Shown: positions 15,325 to 56,801 of the stretch, piece by piece
Layout: each line of letters starts with the position of its first letter
Position numbering within the stretch: the first letter of the stretch is position 1
Virus record (IMG/VR): IMGVR_UViG_3300032225_002203
DNA length: 64,000 nucleotides
Direction: 5' to 3' (one strand)
DNA from: an uncultured virus (IMG/VR IMGVR_UViG_3300032225_002203)
Lineage: Duplodnaviria > Heunggongvirae > Uroviricota > Caudoviricetes
Position numbers and translations under genes: made by a program
The notes under the pieces: model-generated
What the model was told of the DNA's origin: nothing
What the model saw: only the letters and a program-made list of their open reading frames with translations
Databases searched by the model: none

Positions 15325-16546
15325 TGTTTCCTAAAAGATATTGATAAAACATTCTATCATTATCATTTTCCATATCAAGATATTGTTCCTTAACAACTGA
15401 TAACTCTTCTCTTGTCAAATCATCTTTAACAATTTTATCAATCAAATTATCATAATAGTTTTGACCACTATTTGGTGTAAATGTAGAGCTTTGTTTATAA
15501 TGAACTTTACTTCTACTATCATTGATAAGTTCTAAACCAGAACCGTTGTCCATATAAGATTTGCCTTTCTTATTACTTCTACGACTTTTCTTAAATTTAC
15601 CATACTCAATTTCCCAGTCTAAATCATCAACACCATGATCAATAGGTGCATCATCTTGTGGACTTTGGTCATACCAATCATCGTGATATCCATAATCTCT
15701 TCTTCTCCAATCGTTAGATTTTGGAGTATAAGTAGTTGATTTGTAACCACTACCATAACTACCATATGAACCATATGACTTGTATTCTTTTTTAGTCATA
15801 TCTCTTTCAGTTGGAAGACTTTCCCAGTCAACTAATAAACAAGCCATTGCTAAATCTTCAAGGTGTCTAATATCTTGGGTTTCATTAACAGTATGTTCTT
15901 TATAATAACCAACAGAAATATTTGTACACTCTGGAATAATATCAGTAAATTCAGCAGAGTCTGTGTAAACACCACCTTCATCTTTCTTATATTTCATACC
16001 AGATAGGTTCAACTGTCTTGCTAAGGCATCAGCAAAAGCATCAGAACAACATCTTGTAGAAGATTGATAAGTAATAACTGAATCAGTACCACGTCTATCA
16101 AAAGAAAGAATTCTATCATATTTACCTTTGAAGTCTTTAATAGACATAGATGAAGCCAATCCTGAACCAATACAACCAACTTCTTCACCAATAAAAAAGT
16201 AGTAAAGACCTGGAATCTTATTTTTAATTAAGTGTAGCATAACTGTAACACCTGCTTTATCATCAGCACCTAAAGTAGTTTTACCATCTGTGCCAATAAT
16301 ATCTCCGTCTAAAGTATGTACAACTGAGGTTGCTTCTTTAGAAACAGTATCTAAGTGAGAAGCAAATATTGTGCGAGATTCGCCTATTTTATAAAAGTAG
16401 TTACCGTGTGTATCTTTTTGCAAATCTGATGGAAAGATACCTTGTTCTATCATATCTGATACTAATTCATCTTCAGTACCATATGGATATGTACGGCTCG
16501 TCAACCTAATAAATGTTTCAAAAATCATATTATCTTTCTTGTTCAT
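15314..16546 (-). CDS. M28/M20-family zinc peptidase (start revised to 16546; 16528 also possible)
   Basis: SHLDTV, LGADDKAG, GEEVG, FDRRG, NISVGY..EHT metal-ligand motifs; Bacteroidota-type promoter at 16573-16604. Confidence 0.8.
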   Translation of the reverse strand: MNKKDNMIFETFIRLTSRTYPYGTEDELVSDMIEQGIFPSDLQKDTHGNYFYKIGESRTIFASHLDTVSKEATSVVHTLDGDIIGTDGKTTLGADDKAGVTVMLHLIKNKIPGLYYFFIGEEVGCIGSGLASSMSIKDFKGKYDRILSFDRRGTDSVITYQSSTRCCSDAFADALARQLNLSGMKYKKDEGGVYTDSAEFTDIIPECTNISVGYYKEHTVNETQDIRHLEDLAMACLLVDWESLPTERDMTKKEYKSYGSYGSYGSGYKSTTYTPKSNDWRRRDYGYHDDWYDQSPQDDAPIDHGVDDLDWEIEYGKFKKSRRSNKKGKSYMDNGSGLELINDSRSKVHYKQSSTFTPNSGQNYYDNLIDKIVKDDLTREELSVVKEQYLDMENDNDRMFYQYLLGNIID

Positions 16547-16572
16547 GTCGAGCTTGGATTTATTTATGTTTA

Positions 16573-16604
16573 CAAATATACAATATATTTCCACAAAAAA
16601 CAAG
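16573..16604 (-). promoter_or_regulatory. Bacteroidota sigmaA-type promoter
   Basis: Minus strand CTTG-N20-TATATTTG. Confidence 0.65.
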
Positions 16605-16631
16605 TGATAATGGATTTTTAATATATAAATT

Positions 16632-17165
16632 ATGGCATATACAATAGATAAAACACTTTTATGGTCAAATGTAATAACTTTCACATCTGACTCAGGAACT
16701 AAATATTCTGTTAAATTATCAGAATTAAGTAATGGTTCTGGAATATGGACTTTGGATTTTAATTTAATAAGTGGAATGCCAAATAAATCAGAGGTTTTTT
16801 CAACTATGTCTACTTTGTATGAAATTTTAACAGAACCTAATGGTTTATTAGAAAAAAATAATGCTACCAGTGTAGTAGTTTATATTGCTGGTACTAGCAG
16901 AGAAGAAATAGACTTAAAAACTAAAATTTTTACAAGATGGATTAAAAATCCTTGGGAATATAAAATAGATTATAAACCAGAAATAACTATTTTAGGAAAA
17001 AGAGATGCAATATATCCTGATACAAATTTTATACTCATGACAAAAACTGGTAGATTGGAAGAAGTATCTATTACAAGTAATATTAAATACTGCTTCAATT
17101 GTGGATCAGAGAATAAAGATTATAAATTTTGTCCAACTTGCGGAACAAATTTACAACAAGCATAA
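16632..17165 (+). CDS. Hypothetical protein with C-terminal zinc ribbon
   Basis: CFNCG...CPTCG. Confidence 0.7.
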   Translation: MAYTIDKTLLWSNVITFTSDSGTKYSVKLSELSNGSGIWTLDFNLISGMPNKSEVFSTMSTLYEILTEPNGLLEKNNATSVVVYIAGTSREEIDLKTKIFTRWIKNPWEYKIDYKPEITILGKRDAIYPDTNFILMTKTGRLEEVSITSNIKYCFNCGSENKDYKFCPTCGTNLQQA

Positions 17166-17182
17166 ACTTTTTCAATATATAA

Positions 17183-17257
17183 CTTAGCTGTTCGCTACAC
17201 TTATGTCGGGTATCATCAGGATGCCTTTGAGATTTAGAAATGAATCAAAGATATAGG
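17183..17257 (+). promoter_or_regulatory. Structured 5' leader (three-way junction) of the 17279 gene
   Basis: CTTATGTC(17200-07)/GATATAGG(17250-57) encloses GGTATC/GATGCC and TTTGA/TCAAA hairpins. Confidence 0.55.
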
Positions 17258-17278
17258 ATAAAATAAAAATGAATAACT

Positions 17279-18226
17279 ATGGCAAAACAAATTGCTCAAA
17301 CAAGCACGAAACCAAATGCTTGGATCGTATCTTCCAACGACAGAGGAAGAAAATCAATTAAAAATGGGAAAGTCTTCTTAACAGATGGAGACGAATTCGA
17401 AATCGAATTATTTAACCCACTAACCGTTTCAGTTCTCGCTGATATTAAATTAAACGGTCAATCAATCTCAAAAACAGGATTAGTAGTAAAACCAGGACAA
17501 AGGGTTTATTTAGACTGCTTTATTGATGATAGAAAAAAATTCAAATTTTCAACTTACGAAATTGAAAACTCTGGAGAAGCATTAGACGCAACTCAGAACA
17601 ATGGTCTTTTGGAAGTTTTCTTCTACAAAGAAGATGTTATCACTTTAGATAACTGGCAAAGAAAGTTTGATAGAGTCATTGTTGAAAAGTGGTATCCGGT
17701 TTATTATCCTACCTATCCATCTTATCCTTACTACAGACCTAGTGTTTGGTTTGGAACAACAAATCCTTATAACACCGTCATAACAACTAATGGTTCAGGT
17801 ATTATAGGAACAACAACTACATCAAATGCTTATTACTCAAGTAATAATATTGTAAATTGTAGTTATACATCTGGTGTTGATTTATCCAATCTTAATATTG
17901 GTGGTTCAAATAATATGACTCCTATCAACTCAATTGAAACAGGTAGAGTTGAAAAGGGTGAAGTTTCAAAACAAAAATTCACTGAGATAGAAATGGATTT
18001 TGAAAAGAATTATATCTCTTCAACTATTATCCAAATCTTACCAGAAAGTAGAAAGCCGGTTGAAACAAAGGATATCTTCAATAAGAAAACAGGAGAAATA
18101 AATGTGAAAAAAGAATCTAATGAAGTAATTGAACTAATCAAAAAATTAGCCGATTTACATTCAGCCGGAATCTTAACAGATGAAGAGTTCTCTGAAAAGA
18201 AATCAGAATTACTAAGTAAAATATAA
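17279..18226 (+). CDS. Hypothetical protein: beta-rich N-terminal domain, low-complexity middle, C-terminal SHOCT domain
   Basis: LIKKLADLHSAGILTDEEFSEKKSELL fits the SHOCT pattern. Confidence 0.7.
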   Translation: MAKQIAQTSTKPNAWIVSSNDRGRKSIKNGKVFLTDGDEFEIELFNPLTVSVLADIKLNGQSISKTGLVVKPGQRVYLDCFIDDRKKFKFSTYEIENSGEALDATQNNGLLEVFFYKEDVITLDNWQRKFDRVIVEKWYPVYYPTYPSYPYYRPSVWFGTTNPYNTVITTNGSGIIGTTTTSNAYYSSNNIVNCSYTSGVDLSNLNIGGSNNMTPINSIETGRVEKGEVSKQKFTEIEMDFEKNYISSTIIQILPESRKPVETKDIFNKKTGEINVKKESNEVIELIKKLADLHSAGILTDEEFSEKKSELLSKI

Positions 18227-23566: not shown

Positions 23567-23922
23567 ATATCTCCTAAAGTTGGACGGTAATGTTCAATTG
23601 ATTCTATGCCTAAAATATGGTTGATTCTTTTTTGTCTAAGCATTTCTTTAGAATAGATAGAAGTCATATCAATCAATTTACCTGGAGAATAAGTATGTTG
23701 AGTTACTCTTATACCTCTTTTACTTATATGCGTTACTGTTTTAGGTTGAAGTTCATCAGGTAAATATTCATAATTAGGCACACAGGCATAACAATCACAG
23801 TAGTGATCATGGTAATCCCAATCTTCATCATCATACCAATACCAATAGTAGTTATGATCATCAAGTTCTGCCTTAGTGATTATCTTATCAAGTATTTCTA
23901 TTTTATTCTTCCTTAGAGCCAT
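23548..23922 (-). CDS. Hypothetical protein with aromatic/Cys-His patch
   Basis: HDHYCDCYAC; RQKRINHIL tag. Confidence 0.65.
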   Translation of the reverse strand: MALRKNKIEILDKIITKAELDDHNYYWYWYDDEDWDYHDHYCDCYACVPNYEYLPDELQPKTVTHISKRGIRVTQHTYSPGKLIDMTSIYSKEMLRQKRINHILGIESIEHYRPTLGDILNIKK

Positions 23923-24337
23923 TTACAAGTTCATTTATTCGCCAATCTCTAATGTTAATTTTAAAATCATCAAAAGAGTTTGATTTAGACATAATGTCTA
24001 TTCTTGTATTTATTTCTTTTATTAAACCACTTATTTCCATATCTCTTTGTCTACACTGACCATCATAAACACATTCAACTTTATTTTCATCAGATGATAG
24101 AACCCAAACCGTAATGTTTTTATAGACATCAAACATTTTTTTTGTTCTATATAAATACTCTTCCGCGGCTTGGCTTGTTAAATTTTTAGTATTAACATAA
24201 ACAGTAAAAATAGGATGGTCTAAATTTATTTCAATTTTTTCTTCTGACTGATAAGACATAGTAATAGGAATATTACTGTTAAGAGCAGATGATAAAGGAC
24301 TACTACTATTTGGATTATTAAAAAACGGTAAAGGCAT
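23903..24337 (-). CDS. Hypothetical protein
   Basis: ORF in operon; RDWRINELV tag. Confidence 0.65.
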   Translation of the reverse strand: MPLPFFNNPNSSSPLSSALNSNIPITMSYQSEEKIEINLDHPIFTVYVNTKNLTSQAAEEYLYRTKKMFDVYKNITVWVLSSDENKVECVYDGQCRQRDMEISGLIKEINTRIDIMSKSNSFDDFKINIRDWRINELVNGSKEE

Positions 24338-28379: not shown

Positions 28380-28718
28380 TTAATTTAGTACTTGTTTTAT
28401 TTTTTCGTCTCTGCGATAAGCTTTATAATCTTCTTCTTCGGTAATAAAATATTCTGACATTTCTTTTTCAGTAAAGTAATACCATTTAATCTTTTCATTG
28501 TGTGGTAGATTCCACCAATCTTTTCTACCAGAATGATATCCATACTGGTCATCTTCAACACAAAAGCCATAACCTGTTTTACCATTAACTTCTGGGTCAG
28601 CATTATATTCTAATGGACCACATCCTTTAATAGCATAATGAGAACCGTTTTTAAGTGTTTTGTATTCTTTAACACAAACCAGTCTATCACCCATTTCAAA
28701 TCTAACAAATTTATCCAT
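28380..28718 (-). CDS. Hypothetical protein
   Basis: ORF in operon; ends RRDEKIKQVLN. Confidence 0.65.
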   Translation of the reverse strand: MDKFVRFEMGDRLVCVKEYKTLKNGSHYAIKGCGPLEYNADPEVNGKTGYGFCVEDDQYGYHSGRKDWWNLPHNEKIKWYYFTEKEMSEYFITEEEDYKAYRRDEKIKQVLN

Positions 28719-28932
28719 TGAATATTCGTTTAATTTTTTCCTTTCTCATTTTTATAATGCGAACCTTACCTCTCAACTTAAAAACTTCAGAGTAAACATC
28801 TGTTACTAGTCTTGAGTTTTGACCATAATTAGAGTTAACAATCATCTTGTAATAAGCTAATTTAGTTTCTAATTCTTTCATCTTTTCTAATTCTTTCATC
28901 TTAATCTTCTCCATGATGGTCAATTTTTTCAA
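28711..28932 (-). CDS. Hypothetical basic protein (start uncertain)
   Basis: Ends RKEKIKRIFNG. Confidence 0.55.
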   Translation of the reverse strand: MKKLTIMEKIKMKELEKMKELETKLAYYKMIVNSNYGQNSRLVTDVYSEVFKLRGKVRIIKMRKEKIKRIFNG

Positions 28933-29603: not shown

Positions 29604-30476
29604 ATGTCAAATCTATCTAAAACCGTTGGCCAAACACCTTTAATTAAAATCTCAGAAAGAATCTTCGCAAAGTTTGAAGGTCAAAATCCAAGTGGTTCAA
29701 TAAAAGATAGAATGGCTTCCTACATAATTAATGATGCTGAAAAAAACGGTCTTATTAAAAAAGGTGATACTATTATTGAAGCAACATCTGGTAACTCTGG
29801 AATTGCTTTTGCTTTCTTATCAGCAGAAAGAGGTTATAAATGTATTATCATTATGCCTGCTAATATGAGTGAAGAGCGTAAACAAATGTTAAGACTTTAT
29901 GGTGCTGAACTTATTGAAGTACCAGATGGTAAATTTGATGACGCAATTGCTTTAAGAGATAAAATGGCTCAAGAAAATGGTTACTTTAATCCTAATCAGT
30001 TTCACAATCCTCTAAATATACAAGCTCACTACGAGGGAACTGGTGTTGAGATTCTACACCAACATACAGATAAAATTGCGGCTTTTTTAGATGGAACAGG
30101 AACTGGTGGTACTCTTATGGGCACTTCTCGTCTTTTAAAGATGTATCATCCTTTTATGAAAGTTGTAGCAGTTGAACCAGCAGAATCACCAGTTATGTCA
30201 GGTGGTGAACCAGGACTTCACGGTATTCAAGGAATTGGTGATGGTTCTAAATTTATGGTTAACTTAAAAGAAGTAGATGATATTATCATTATATCAACTG
30301 AAGAAGCTAAAGAAAGAGCAAGGAGACTTGCTAAAGAACAAGGTTTGTTTGTTGGTATTAGTTCAGGTGCTAATATTTTAGCATCAGAAAGATTGTTAGA
30401 AAAATATCCAGAAATGGATGGAAATATCATAACTATATTATGTGATAGAGGAGAAAGATATCTTTCTTGTTTCTAA
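29604..30476 (+). CDS. cysK: Cysteine synthase (O-acetylserine sulfhydrylase, PLP-dependent; CysK/CysM family)
   Basis: VGQTPL, NPSGSIKDR, EATSGNSG, GTGTGGT, HGIQGIG, GISSGAN, DRGERYLS. Confidence 0.92.
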   Translation: MSNLSKTVGQTPLIKISERIFAKFEGQNPSGSIKDRMASYIINDAEKNGLIKKGDTIIEATSGNSGIAFAFLSAERGYKCIIIMPANMSEERKQMLRLYGAELIEVPDGKFDDAIALRDKMAQENGYFNPNQFHNPLNIQAHYEGTGVEILHQHTDKIAAFLDGTGTGGTLMGTSRLLKMYHPFMKVVAVEPAESPVMSGGEPGLHGIQGIGDGSKFMVNLKEVDDIIIISTEEAKERARRLAKEQGLFVGISSGANILASERLLEKYPEMDGNIITILCDRGERYLSCF

Positions 30477-30493
30477 AAATAATATATAGTTTA

Positions 30494-31330
30494 ATGAAAC
30501 ACTTAAAAAGATATGATGAAGGGATTAACTCATCTACTGATTTATTAGAAGAAGGTCTTTTTGACTTCCTTTCTAAGAAATTAACTGAAGATGATAAAAT
30601 TGCCTTAGAGTATATAGCTCGTTTAAAAAAAGTAAAAGGTATTTCACCTTATAAGATAGAAAAATCTACTACAAGAAATGATGACGGATATGCTATATAT
30701 GGAAATAATAGTCACCAAATAGATAAATTTAAAGTTGATTTTGATGACACTCCTATAAGAATATGGTGTGTTACTAAACCAAATGGATTTGACACCAGAT
30801 CACAGGATTTTTTACTAAGTAAAAACCTATGTAAGTATAACAGTAGAGAGTTTTATAAATTAGAAGTAATTTGTGAAGGTGATCCTGAAAATTGTAAAGC
30901 TAGTGCCAAAATAATTAAAGAATTATCTGATTTAGTTAAATCAGTATATGAAAATGATAAAGAAGCTAAAAGAATTGAAAATATTAAAATTAATATGAAT
31001 AAAGCGGCTGATTTAATAAGTGATGAACCAATTAAAGAATCTATATACGAAAGAGAAGTAGTATTCACTAATAAAAGAAATCCAAGATTAGTAATTACAA
31101 TTAAGAAGAATCCTGATGGTAGAATAACTGAAATTGAAAATGAAACTGGAATGAGATTTCCTTTCTCAGTAGGTCAATTACTACAAAGAAATGTAGAAGT
31201 TTGGGCTTGTAATAATAACTTCTTAATGGATGGTAAAGATACTTGTCCGGATAAAAAGATATTTGGTGTTAAAACTAAAGATGTGCCACAAGGACATGAA
31301 TGGAGACATATATTTCCTCATAAATTTTAA
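30494..31330 (+). CDS. Hypothetical protein with capsid-targeting-like N-terminus (start revised)
   Basis: MKHLKRYDE, 5 nt after ATATATA (30482-30488). Confidence 0.7.
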   Translation: MKHLKRYDEGINSSTDLLEEGLFDFLSKKLTEDDKIALEYIARLKKVKGISPYKIEKSTTRNDDGYAIYGNNSHQIDKFKVDFDDTPIRIWCVTKPNGFDTRSQDFLLSKNLCKYNSREFYKLEVICEGDPENCKASAKIIKELSDLVKSVYENDKEAKRIENIKINMNKAADLISDEPIKESIYEREVVFTNKRNPRLVITIKKNPDGRITEIENETGMRFPFSVGQLLQRNVEVWACNNNFLMDGKDTCPDKKIFGVKTKDVPQGHEWRHIFPHKF

Positions 31331-46100: not shown

Positions 46101-46679
46101 ATGAAAAAGTTTTCAGATTTTAAACCAGTTAAAAAGAAGATATTCGAAGCCGAATCAAATCTTCCTGGTAATTACGAAGATATGTCTAAAGAAGAATTGA
46201 TTAAATTAATGTCTGGTCAATCTAAGGCTGGAGAGGCTGAAGATAATAAAGATGAGGCTGAAGAAGAAAAATCAGAAGAAACTGCCGAAAATAGCGGCTC
46301 TAGTGATGTATCAAAATTTCTTTCTAGATTATTAGAAAGTAGAGAAATGGCTCAAGTTTATCACTGGACTGTTAAAGGAGATATGGGTTCTCATGCTGCT
46401 CACTTAGCTTTAGAAGCTTATTATACAGAAGTTATTGAAAACATTGATGAGATTGTTGAGGTTTATCAAGGACAATATGGTCTTATTGAGGAATACAATG
46501 TAATTGATACAACAGATACTAAATCTAAAGATAAATTAGAATATTTCAAAGAAATTGTTGAATGGGTAAGAGAAGAAAGAAAGTGTTTTGATGAAAAAGA
46601 CACACACATACACAATATAATAGACGAGGTAGTAGCCTTGTTATATAGAACTATCTACAAATTAACCTACAATAAGTAA
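46101..46679 (+). CDS. Ferritin/Dps-like four-helix protein (DUF5856-like) with acidic N-terminal extension
   Basis: YHWTV...HAAHLALEAYY...IDEIVEVYQG...NIIDE..Y+TIYKL. Confidence 0.75.
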   Translation: MKKFSDFKPVKKKIFEAESNLPGNYEDMSKEELIKLMSGQSKAGEAEDNKDEAEEEKSEETAENSGSSDVSKFLSRLLESREMAQVYHWTVKGDMGSHAAHLALEAYYTEVIENIDEIVEVYQGQYGLIEEYNVIDTTDTKSKDKLEYFKEIVEWVREERKCFDEKDTHIHNIIDEVVALLYRTIYKLTYNK

Positions 46680-46684
46680 AATTA

Positions 46685-46712
46685 AAAACCCACTTAATAA
46701 GTGGGTTTTTTT
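46685..46712. terminator. Bidirectional terminator
   Basis: AAAAACCCACTTAATAAGTGGGTTTTTT. Confidence 0.8.
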
Positions 46713-46957
46713 ATTTCTATAGTTCCGTAATATTTACTATTTATATTCTTTGTTGAGTATCTACTCATAATTGATTTACTTGGTGAGAATTCATCCTTAA
46801 TATCTAAACCTAAATCAAATATCTTATTAATCTTTCTTTTCCTACTTACATTTTTAGAACCATATTCAACTACAGTCTGAGCCGTAGTCATTGGTATATA
46901 AGGAGCATAAACATAACCTGGTTCTATTAAATTATCAGACTTTTTACCTATTAACAT
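46694..46957 (-). CDS. Mini-protein resembling the C-terminus of a T4-like major capsid protein (gp23)
   Basis: GYVYAPYIPM...FSPSKSIMSRYS.K.I..KYYGTI. Confidence 0.65.
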   Translation of the reverse strand: MLIGKKSDNLIEPGYVYAPYIPMTTAQTVVEYGSKNVSRKRKINKIFDLGLDIKDEFSPSKSIMSRYSTKNINSKYYGTIEIKKPTY

Positions 46958-47099
46958 TAAACAATCTTTTGATTTTATCTTTTCTACTTTTAGTTTTAAG
47001 AATAGATTTTAGAACTTTAGAAGACCAATAATCACCATGGATACTAGTACCTGGACCACCATATATCGTATTCCACTCATTATTTGCGATGAACGTCAT
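46944..47099 (-). CDS. Small hypothetical protein (51 aa; not in ORF track)
   Basis: MTFIANNEWNTIYGGPGTSIHGDYWSSKVLKSILKTKSRKDKIKRLFNVNR. Confidence 0.6.
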   Translation of the reverse strand: MTFIANNEWNTIYGGPGTSIHGDYWSSKVLKSILKTKSRKDKIKRLFNVNR

Positions 47100-47205
47100 A
47101 TAACCTTTTAATTTTATCTTTTCTTATTTGAACTCGATTGAATCTATGTAAAGCACTTTGAATAGATTCTCTTTTACACTCAGGTATATTTTTCCAAACT
47201 GCCAT
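47080..47205 (-). CDS. Small hypothetical protein (41 aa; not in ORF track)
   Basis: MAVWKNIPECKRESIQSALHRFNRVQIRKDKIKRLYDVHRK. Confidence 0.6.
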   Translation of the reverse strand: MAVWKNIPECKRESIQSALHRFNRVQIRKDKIKRLYDVHRK

Positions 47206-47226: not shown

Positions 47227-47544
47227 TTACTTGTTTTCAGTGTACATATATTTTCTACCACCATCATTATAATCCATTAGATTATTGATTACAGTATCAA
47301 TCTTATCATTACAATCATCAACATCTTTCTTAATTACCTGAAGAGCCGCAATAGAGTCATCTATTTGGTCATTACCTTTTTTAGAATCGCTTTTATAGTT
47401 ATTAAGTTCATTTAGAAGAGATTCAACATATTTAGATTTATCTAACATAGTAGCAGCAAAATCTTTTAATTGTTCATTGATTTCACTAACTCTTTCAGAT
47501 GAGATATCTACTTGTTCGTCTTCATTGAATCTTTTAATTTTCAT
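47227..47544 (-). CDS. Coiled-coil protein with capsid-targeting-like N-terminus
   Basis: MKIKRFNE; heptad pattern. Confidence 0.7.
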   Translation of the reverse strand: MKIKRFNEDEQVDISSERVSEINEQLKDFAATMLDKSKYVESLLNELNNYKSDSKKGNDQIDDSIAALQVIKKDVDDCNDKIDTVINNLMDYNDGGRKYMYTENK

Positions 47545-47562
47545 AATAATGGTTTGATAATT

Positions 47563-47578
47563 TTAATATATATATTAA
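47563..47578. promoter_or_regulatory. Palindromic, probably bidirectional ATATATA promoter
   Basis: TTAATATATATATTAA between divergent genes. Confidence 0.6.
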
Positions 47579-55349: not shown

Positions 55350-56801
55350 TTAAAGCTTAATAGCCTTAATCTCATTGTAAAGAGCTTTCTTGTCTAACTC
55401 CATCATCTTCATGATGTCAAAGACTTTATCTGAAAATCCAGCCAAAGCAAAGACGTTTTGTTCAGGGAACTGCAAAGTACTCATCCCAGCAAGATCCCAA
55501 GAGTAAACGTATGGATTAGCTCCAAACTTACTCTTATACTTAGAGAACTCAGCAGATGGAGTTGTATAACCCATCCAACCTTGCATATCTGACAAGATAA
55601 TAACTCTGTCATACTTCTTGTTAGCTCTATCAAAGATAGCCTTGAAATTGGTACCTCCACCTGAGAATCTGAAACTATTTCTAATAGTCATTACAGAATC
55701 CATTGGATTGTAAGACATATACTTAGCATCAGTAGAGAAAGTCATAACATCACAGTTATTAACTTTAGCCAAAATAGCACCAAATAATGAAGCAATCTCA
55801 GATGGCTTACCGCTCATAGAACCAGAAACATCCATAACAACAAGTGTCTCACCGTCAAATACTGGTACGTTAGCAACAGAGATATCAAGTGCTTGACCAA
55901 TTGCCATAAGAACGTCTCTTACTTCTTTAGAAGAACCAATCTTACTGATTTCTTCATAAGCAGTTGAGAAACGGAATGGAAGAACTCTTGAGTTCTTAAT
56001 CAATCTTTCATCAACTAACATTTCACAAGCTGAACTGACAGCAGTTGGAGATTGAGTGATGATGTTTCTCAAGTTTCTAAGAAGTGCGAAGTAACCAATC
56101 TTCTTAGTAGAAATCAATTCTGACCAAGCATCGGCTTTCAATTTAGTCAAGTCTTCTTCAGACTCGGCTACTTGACCAGCTTGCGATAACATAGACTCCC
56201 AAGTTTGAGTGTTTTTCAACTCACCTTTAACAAGTGACTCAAGGGCCGCCTTGTTTCTAACAGTTGGAATTGGGTGAACAATGTTAACTAAGTCAACAAG
56301 TTTTACTTCTTTGTTATCACCTTTGTACTTAGCCAATTGGTAACCATCAAACTTATCGAAAGCTTTAGCGAATCCTTTCTTCAAAGCATTTGGAAACTTA
56401 GGACTATCTTTAGATGTCTTGTAAGCCAAGTAGTAAGACATGATTTCAGTCATATCATCAACACGAACAACTACTTTGTCGTAGAAGTTTTTACCCCACT
56501 CGGCGCCCGATAGTTGTGAAGTTAGTTCACCAGCAAGGGCATGAGTAATACTTCTCATACCGAAACGGTCACGAGCAAAGATAGCCGCCTTAGCAACAAA
56601 CTCTTTATCTTTCACTTTACTAGAAAGTCTTCTCAATTCGTCTAATGACGTTTGAGCATTTCTATAAAACTGATCATTAACAAATGATGTTAATAAAAGA
56701 GATACTAGAGCTAGTTCATCAGATTGTGAATAAGCTTGTCCACCTGCTAGGTTTTCAGTTAAAGTCTTTGCCTTTGGCATTGTTGTGTTAAATTTTGACA
56801 T
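55350..56801 (-). CDS. Ro60/TROVE-domain RNA-binding protein (TROVE plus vWA)
   Basis: NLAGGQAY, AR..FGMRS, FDGYQLAKY, TWES.LS, GYFALLRNLRNI, LPFRF; MIDAS DVSGSM, GGGT, ILSDMQ. Confidence 0.93.
   Translation of the reverse strand: MSKFNTTMPKAKTLTENLAGGQAYSQSDELALVSLLLTSFVNDQFYRNAQTSLDELRRLSSKVKDKEFVAKAAIFARDRFGMRSITHALAGELTSQLSGAEWGKNFYDKVVVRVDDMTEIMSYYLAYKTSKDSPKFPNALKKGFAKAFDKFDGYQLAKYKGDNKEVKLVDLVNIVHPIPTVRNKAALESLVKGELKNTQTWESMLSQAGQVAESEEDLTKLKADAWSELISTKKIGYFALLRNLRNIITQSPTAVSSACEMLVDERLIKNSRVLPFRFSTAYEEISKIGSSKEVRDVLMAIGQALDISVANVPVFDGETLVVMDVSGSMSGKPSEIASLFGAILAKVNNCDVMTFSTDAKYMSYNPMDSVMTIRNSFRFSGGGTNFKAIFDRANKKYDRVIILSDMQGWMGYTTPSAEFSKYKSKFGANPYVYSWDLAGMSTLQFPEQNVFALAGFSDKVFDIMKMMELDKKALYNEIKAIKL

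What the first reader, a model, noticed from the sequence alone, without database searches (positions are those of the whole stretch)
46694..46957. 87-aa protein made of only the gp23-type capsid C-terminus with the R..KI..I tag inserted
Seen: GYVYAPYIPM followed by FSPSKSIMSRYSTKNINSKYYGTI. Known: T4-like major capsid proteins end in a G(Y/F)xY(A/C)PY(I/V)P...FxPxxGxxTRY pattern. Between these two blocks lies an insert containing RKRKINKIF. Inference: a capsid-fragment mimic, either a decoy for capsid-sensing defence systems or an assembly modulator, rather than a decayed gene, because the ORF is intact and coupled to two tag-bearing mini-genes.
Basis: partly seen in the sequence, partly recalled or inferred. 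Interest (0 to 1): 0.7.

Follow-up and report, generated by a model that had tools for sequence, protein, structure and literature searches.

The report
Tagged capsid-fragment mini-protein of megaphages
A giant freshwater phage keeps a small, conserved gene that copies only the end of a T4-type capsid protein, more like other phages' capsids than its own, with a short helical label spliced in; it is one of a set of labelled fragments of core phage proteins, probably baits in a conflict with host immunity or rival phages, but this is untested.

Summary
ORF 46694-46957(-) is two gp23 C-terminal blocks around a 22-residue insert bearing the R-x-x-K-I-x-x-I helix. It is a maintained gene: 362 homologue clusters, omega 0.29. 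It evolves five times faster than its neighbours and is exchanged laterally. It resembles a foreign gp23 type far more than its own clade's capsid (local alignment score 152 vs 66), though it is mosaic. It is not alone: relatives carry tagged pieces of at least four other capsid segments, and of prohead protease, terminase, sheath and helicase, some self-like, some foreign. The tag is protein-level and ends 8-13% of ORFs. An unrelated 519-kb phage has the same kind of fragments with a different tag (R-x-V-L-x-E-K), so the design is convergent. The gene lies in a run headed by the late-gene motif. Best reading (0.4): a late-expressed bait that blunts host capsid sensors, with the tag as a docking handle; rivals are poisoning of competitor capsids or a tag-only function. 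Ten literature searches found no description; this scan has noted the family and both tags before on other DNA.

The parts
46694..46957 (-). 87-aa tagged capsid-fragment gene (P0001)
46865..46957 (-). Block 1, residues 1-31: gp23-like strand and the G-Y-x-Y-A-P-Y-I-P motif (about T4 gp23 436-459 by profile alignment)
   Evidence: E=2.7e-8
46796..46864 (-). Insert, residues 32-54, at the turn between the two blocks
   Evidence: 22-residue gap in the pairwise alignments
46817..46843 (-). R-x-x-K-I-x-x-I-F tag, residues 39-47; the only confidently folded element (helix 35-47); lowest pN/pS of the gene (0.19)
46703..46795 (-). Block 2, residues 55-85: F-x-P-x-K...S-R-Y strand and last capsid strand
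   Evidence: E=1.8e-7
46684..46710 (.). Bidirectional intrinsic-terminator-like hairpin overlapping the last codons
   Evidence: 12 pairs, both strands; compensatory pairs
46944..47099 (-). 51-aa mini-ORF ending in the tag; its tag codons contain the ATG of the capsid-fragment gene; no family
47080..47205 (-). 41-aa mini-ORF ending in the tag; no family
47227..47544 (-). 105-aa conserved gene with a head-protein-like MK..F.E leader; first gene of the run
   Evidence: (present in 48 of 64 loci)
47565..47576 (.). ATATATA late-gene motif (palindromic) heading the run; the same motif lies before capsid and sheath genes of relatives

Best explanation
SHOWN: the gene encodes the C-terminal strands of a gp23-type capsid protein with the clade's genome-wide helical tag inserted at the turn between them. 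It is kept by selection, swapped between related phages, and is one of a dispersed set of tagged fragments of core phage proteins. INFERRED: it is transcribed late with head genes, in a Bacteroidota host, and acts as a bait. The capsid piece engages a host factor that reads conserved gp23 features (a capsid-sensing defence protein or its chaperone) without completing the activating complex. The tag docks the complex on a common partner that sequesters it or routes it for disposal. The reader of the tag is unknown; a Clp protease is only a guess.
For: The recognisable fragments come from capsid (5 segments), prohead protease, terminase, sheath and helicase. Capsid, prohead protease and terminase are reported triggers of bacterial immunity: Avs8 (passages); Thoeris, CapRel and CBASS (editorial passages); Avs (passage). 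Competitive blocking of such a sensor has a precedent in DSAD1 (abstract). The set mixes self-like pieces (protease C motif, helicase, sheath, two ~250-aa capsid paralogues) with foreign-like pieces (short capsid segments, protease N motif, terminase Walker A). That fits a cross-reactive third-party reader better than a self-only or rival-only target. Conflict-type evolution: omega 0.29 vs 0.057 and 0.054 for two neighbours, a gene tree incongruent with theirs, and freely recombining block alleles. The late motif heads this run, whereas only 35 of 166 tagged genes have it. The design recurs in G007 with another tag.
Against: No partner was identified. The protein alone is predicted unstructured apart from the tag (pTM 0.30), while Avs8 is reported to recognise the whole HK97 fold. 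A decoy would be expected to resemble the phage's own capsid, and this one does not. Most tagged proteins are not recognisable mimics: none of 83 tagged G001 proteins of 70 aa or more matched a head, tail or replication PHROG at E<=0.01, and only 8 of 35 basic-tag minis matched head or packaging families at E<=0.02. Fragments are recognisable only when they hold conserved motifs, so the overlap with known triggers may be ascertainment bias. Three of 64 loci have lost or replaced a capsid block but kept the tag. An earlier unchecked note (e1-8008988) judged the bait-library idea unsupported.
Confidence: 0.4

Rival explanations
1. Weapon against co-infecting T4-like phages: the fragment inserts into a folding or assembling foreign gp23 as a dominant-negative piece, and the inserted helix blocks capsomer contacts or delivers the subunit for disposal. 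The phage's own capsid has diverged at these motifs and is immune.
For: 121 of 121 close homologues and 47 of 51 distant tagged representatives are closer to the foreign type; its nearest named members are Flavobacterium phage immuto and Microcystis phage Mel-JY01. The own capsids lack G-Y-x-Y-x-P-Y (0 of 63, vs 68 of 68 foreign). The spine and A-domain fragments also prefer the foreign profile. Fragments of essential proteins can inhibit their parents (abstract start), and phages do block rival virion assembly (Tai, abstract).
Against: In G007 two of three tagged fragments rank its own capsid 3rd and 7th of 211, which would be self-poisoning. Several fragments in this clade are self-like. A late, lytic-phase gene is poorly timed for exclusion (inference).
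Confidence: 0.22
2. The function lies in the tag. The mini-proteins titrate or tune the tag's reader, and the capsid piece is a captured passenger that supplies a translatable carrier. The genes arise by recombination at tag-coding DNA.
For: The tag is the most constrained part (pN/pS 0.19 vs 0.51-0.53 for the blocks). It survives in all three block-loss variants. It occurs inside, after, or after circularly permuted blocks. Two pure-tag minis sit upstream.
Against: Across 60 aligned members, many under 50% identical to the query, the near-invariant residues outside the tag (G14, P19, Y20, S65, R66, Y67) match gp23-type motif residues. The same capsid regions were captured and kept in a lineage with another tag.
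Confidence: 0.18
3. Modulator of the phage's own head assembly (size, timing or chaperoning of the capsid protein).
For: Late-motif run, shared with spine fragments in G001, G002 and G004. The family profile still matches the own capsid (96.4%), and S-R-Y is own-like (119 of 121). In T4 the P-loops anchor capsomers at quasi-threefold axes (passage).
Against: Only 17 identities to the own-type capsid vs 29 of 60 to the foreign type. Fast evolution and lateral exchange are unlike an assembly factor. It is unlinked to the head gene cluster. It does not explain the helicase or terminase pieces.
Confidence: 0.12
4. The constraint is on the nucleic acid (an RNA or DNA element), or the gene is a recent selfish or neutral relic.
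For: Synonymous divergence is about half the genome median in all 10 comparisons with the window gene, after correcting for codon bias (rank 6 of 76, 2 of 68, 1 of 70 in the three large genomes). Second codon positions vary more than first.
Against: omega is clearly below 1. Indels inside the ORF are in frame in 11 of 11 aligned loci. There is no covarying structure outside the terminator, folding z=-1.6, and no Rfam hit at gathering score. Tag DNA matches near gene ends are in frame 85 of 85 times with background codon use. Tree incongruence explains the low pS by lateral exchange.
Confidence: 0.08

Closest known systems
gp23-type major capsid protein (Pfam PF07068, PHROG 138; T4 gp23, PDB 6uzc/5vf3)
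   Same: The last ~60 residues, motif for motif; closest to the immuto / Mel-JY01 / G007 type.
   Different: 87 aa instead of 460-600; a 22-residue tagged insert; below the Pfam cut-off; a separate full capsid gene of another type exists in relatives.
DSAD1, phage inhibitor of DSR2 (PMC11087589, abstract seen)
   Same: A small phage protein that competes with a structural trigger for a host sensor: the proposed mode of action.
   Different: As I recall, DSAD1 is not a sequence fragment of its trigger, and it has no shared tag. No sensor is known here.
Tai tail-assembly inhibitors (PMC11364771, abstract seen)
   Same: Mobile-element proteins that block a rival's virion assembly: the rival hypothesis.
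   Different: Encoded by prophages and satellites, act on tails, have no tag, and are experimentally proven.
T4 capsid-targeting sequence (CTS) of internal proteins (PMC9958956, passage seen)
   Same: A short portable peptide shared by unrelated proteins.
   Different: The CTS is N-terminal. A CTS-like leader exists separately in these genomes and excludes the tag.
T4 gp24 vertex protein and other capsid paralogues
   Same: A second gene derived from the capsid gene.
   Different: gp24 keeps the whole fold and is a virion part; this is a three-strand piece.

Membership tests
gp23 major capsid protein | C-terminal motif homology | tested here: met
gp23 major capsid protein | Full HK97 fold, Pfam score above cut-off | tested here: not met
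   87 aa; 20.1 vs 24.4 bits; model has one helix, pTM 0.30
gp23 major capsid protein | Located in the head gene cluster after the prohead protease | tested here: not met
   36-96 kb from the capsid gene start in G001, G002, G004 and the L002 contig; neighbours
decayed gene or contig-edge piece | Frameshifts, omega near 1, no conservation | tested here: not met
anti-defence decoy (DSAD1-like) | Binds a host sensor and blocks activation | not testable with these tools
anti-defence decoy (DSAD1-like) | Expressed together with the trigger | tested here: inconclusive
   Late motif heads the run; RNA libraries hold only contigs of relatives
assembly inhibitor of rival phages (Tai-like) | Resembles non-self rather than self structural protein | tested here: inconclusive
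   Met in this clade, not met in G007
assembly inhibitor of rival phages (Tai-like) | Blocks virion assembly of another phage | not testable with these tools
   Needs an experiment
CTS-bearing internal head proteins | N-terminal CTS-like leader | tested here: not met
   Absent from P0001; leader and C-terminal tag co-occur in 1 of 164 tagged proteins
Clp degron or adaptor | Tag co-occurs with a phage Clp protease | tested here: inconclusive
   ClpC-like ATPase in G001, G002, G003, G007 but also in tag-poor G006; ClpP in G001, G006, G007, not G002; no Lon in 5 of 5

The most novel reading that the evidence does not exclude
Unrelated gp23-type megaphages have independently built libraries of modular bait proteins: short copies of the most conserved segments of core phage proteins, self and foreign, each fused to a lineage-specific docking peptide. 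The docking peptide hands whatever the bait binds (host pattern-recognition receptors or rival capsid subunits) to one common effector. This would be a natural adaptor system for targeted neutralisation, with at least two and perhaps six different tags. The capsid pieces may also assemble in trans into a split P-domain mimic.
Probability: 0.25. Interest if true: 0.92.

Novelty: categorically new. Interest (0 to 1): 0.72.

Why it matters
If these are baits, each fragment marks an epitope that bacterial immunity or a rival phage reads. That gives a ready, short, cheap-to-synthesise panel for finding capsid, protease and terminase sensors in Bacteroidota, where few are known. Whatever the bait does, about a tenth of the unknown genes of these megaphages share one handle, and a second lineage converged on the same architecture with another handle. 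One pull-down with the tag could therefore assign a common pathway to roughly a hundred hypothetical proteins per genome. Practically, such genes are mis-annotated as Gp23 and inflate capsid counts in metagenomes.

Tried and rejected
Own capsid gene in G000: absent from this 33%-complete contig, so 'own type' rests on syntenic relatives. AlphaFold of the fragment with 60 sequences was uninformative beyond the tag helix, so no fold search was run. A PDB sequence search with the family profile found nothing. Longer fused forms: 1 of 16 candidates, a methyltransferase fusion. Cellular genomes: a single hit, 32% identical and with the unspliced capsid spacing, on a 4-kb MAG contig. RNA-element, promoter or recombination-site readings of the tag were rejected. 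Head-packaging signal was rejected as unlikely. Clp as reader: no clean co-occurrence. The PolB-like reading of the tagged mini at 28711-28914 and an SSB-like reading of a G001 mini rest on recalled motifs and were NOT confirmed. Metatranscriptomes: five runs with small word shares; contigs of relatives cover the gene in 3 of 4 runs laid but cannot show transcription. The foreign capsid profile included sequences picked by likeness to the query; and repeat the test on the 68 picked with a full-length capsid instead (itself one of the query's hits), with the same result. ORFs crossing the 20-kb borders of fetched pieces were not counted. Literature: 10 searches found no description of the family or tags; subscription papers and bioRxiv supplements were not searchable.

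Full report
Observation. The ORF is as described. The window is the first 64 kb of a 78-kb virus record estimated 33% complete. Syntenic relatives lie on contigs of up to 476 kb. The ClpC-like gene of one relative (G001) has its best cellular matches almost all in Bacteroidota, at about 65-75% identity, which suggests the host. The clade's capsid is 69% identical to those of two 635-642-kb uncultured phages and about 29% to Lak phages.

Homology. The protein aligns with the C-terminal end of gp23-type capsids in two blocks, residues 1-31 and 55-85, separated by an insert. Against a foreign-type capsid 29 of 60 aligned residues are identical, around one 22-residue gap (counted). By the profile alignment to T4 gp23 the blocks correspond to about residues 436-478 and beyond, and the insert sits at the turn near 460-467. 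I take that turn to be the P-loop (recalled, not tested); a review states that three P-loops anchor capsomers at quasi-threefold axes (PMC9958956, passages). AlphaFold gives only a confident helix at 35-47, which is the tag.

A maintained but fast gene. There are 362 clusters at 90% identity and 128 representatives at 50%, the latter including full capsids and contig-edge pieces. Of 64 loci, 54 pass a strict intactness pattern. Of the other 10, three are cut or start differently at contig ends, four are whole but divergent, and three have lost or replaced one capsid block while keeping the tag. On 30 loci omega is 0.29, against 0.057 and 0.054 for two neighbours, and omega=1 is rejected. Synonymous divergence is nevertheless about half the genome median. 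The gene tree disagrees with both neighbours (RF 46 and 42, against 26 between them; AU tests reject, though the neighbours also reject each other more mildly), and block alleles combine freely. No RNA structure other than the terminator was found. I read this as lateral exchange within the clade; a nucleotide-level constraint is not fully excluded.

Whose capsid? Relatives have one full capsid gene elsewhere. The fragment scores at most 66 against 63 such capsids, and 152 (median 134) against 68 foreign-type capsids. All 121 close homologues and 47 of 51 distant tagged representatives prefer the foreign type. The family is mosaic, however: S-R-Y is own-like, and 26 of 51 distant members have an own-like first block.

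A set, not a singleton. G001, G002 and G004 each carry further small ORFs matching other capsid segments: N-terminal arm, strand plus spine helix, spine helix, and A-domain helix (the last two not found in the partial G004). G001 and G004 also carry two ~250-aa degenerate own-type paralogues. The short ones all bear the tag or a close variant. Other tagged minis match the sheath N-terminus (E 2.6e-6), prohead protease (own-type C motif E 1e-4; foreign-type N motif E 4.5e-4), terminase Walker A (foreign, E 0.006) and helicase Walker B (E 0.011), in a local set of 1105 proteins. Most tagged proteins match nothing known.

The tag. It lies in the last 22 residues of 94 of 708 ORFs in G001, 43 of 522 in G002, 20 of 229 in G004 and 9 of 101 in G000, against 0.4-0.8% of internal windows. 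It is protein-level: codon use equals background and off-frame copies are absent near gene ends. It excludes the head-protein-like leader. Tagged genes mostly lack the ATATATA motif that precedes 52 of 56 leader genes with free upstream DNA and the capsid and sheath genes, but this gene's run has it. With capsid pieces the tag appears inside the hairpin, after it, or after circularly permuted blocks, so it behaves as a movable module.

Convergence. G007, a complete 518,809-bp phage sharing only 51 of 708 G001 ORFs, lacks this tag (7 of 899, background level). It carries R-x-V-[LI]-x-E-K in 150 of 899 ORFs by a loose pattern (109 small ORFs vs 1.4 expected), again protein-level. It has tagged pieces of the same capsid regions, here near its own type, and of the sheath. 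G006 has untagged capsid pieces; G008, G009 and G010 show none. The representative set hints at four or five further tags (2-7 members each for four of them, one singleton), which I did not check in genomes.

Mechanism. Late placement, conflict-type evolution, the mix of self and foreign pieces, and the overlap with known immune triggers favour a bait against host sensing, with the tag as handle (0.40). Competitor poisoning (0.22), a tag-only role (0.18), own assembly (0.12) and a nucleic-acid or relic reading (0.08) remain. None of the binding steps is shown.

Comparison and novelty. It is not a member of gp23, gp24, CTS cargo or any tested anti-defence family. It may work like DSAD1 or Tai. 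Ten searches found no description. I saw passages of PMC7824862, PMC12619734, PMC8297831, PMC13728456, PMC9958956 and two preprints, abstracts of PMC11364771 and PMC11087589, and listings only for the rest; no supplements were read. Earlier notes of this scan describe the same family and both tags on other genomes; they are unchecked and not independent support. Verdict: a real, selected, undescribed architecture with an open mechanism; interest 0.72.

Noticed in passing
window 28711-28914 (-): 67-aa tagged mini-ORF, conserved in G001, G002 and G004, with an N-S-x-Y-G motif recalling family B polymerase motif B; no search confirmed it.
   Followed up: yes
G000 67418-68944 (outside the window); G001, G002, G003, G004: The phage's own family B polymerase appears split: a ~508-aa ORF matches only profile positions 18-155, and no motif-B partner was found by pattern.
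   Followed up: partly
G001 284643-286775; G007 173917-175938; G006 near 86029: Phage-encoded ClpC-like ATPases of 673-710 aa; the G001 sequence begins at the linker, so it seems to lack the N-domain. ClpP is present in G001, G006 and G007.
   Followed up: partly
G004 17343-17633; G007 76630 and 80439; G001 464349: Tagged proteins resembling the ClpC UVR motif (recalled motif, untested) and an acyl carrier protein (PHROG E=1.3e-6): mimicry may extend to host proteins.
   Followed up: partly
G001 166192, G002 190956, G004 20453: Double chimera: sheath N-terminal motif, tag, then a terminase-like I-T-S-T-P-x-G motif, directly behind the tagged capsid N-arm fragment.
   Followed up: partly
G006 16446-17321: A deaminase-like ORF (recalled motif) fused to a capsid A-domain piece (E=2e-15), with no tag.
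   Followed up: no
window 46101-46679 (+): DUF5856 / starvation-inducible (Dps-like) protein converging on the shared terminator.
   Followed up: no
window 55350-56801 (-): TROVE/Ro60-like protein, unusually conserved (89-99% in relatives).
   Followed up: no
window 29604-31330 (+): PALP (cysteine-synthase-like) gene and neighbour with low synonymous divergence to G002, a possible recent transfer.
   Followed up: no
window 23903-24337 (-) and G007 290801-291124: Apparently homologous small proteins that carry the local tag in each lineage (seen by eye): a possible case of re-tagging after transfer.
   Followed up: no
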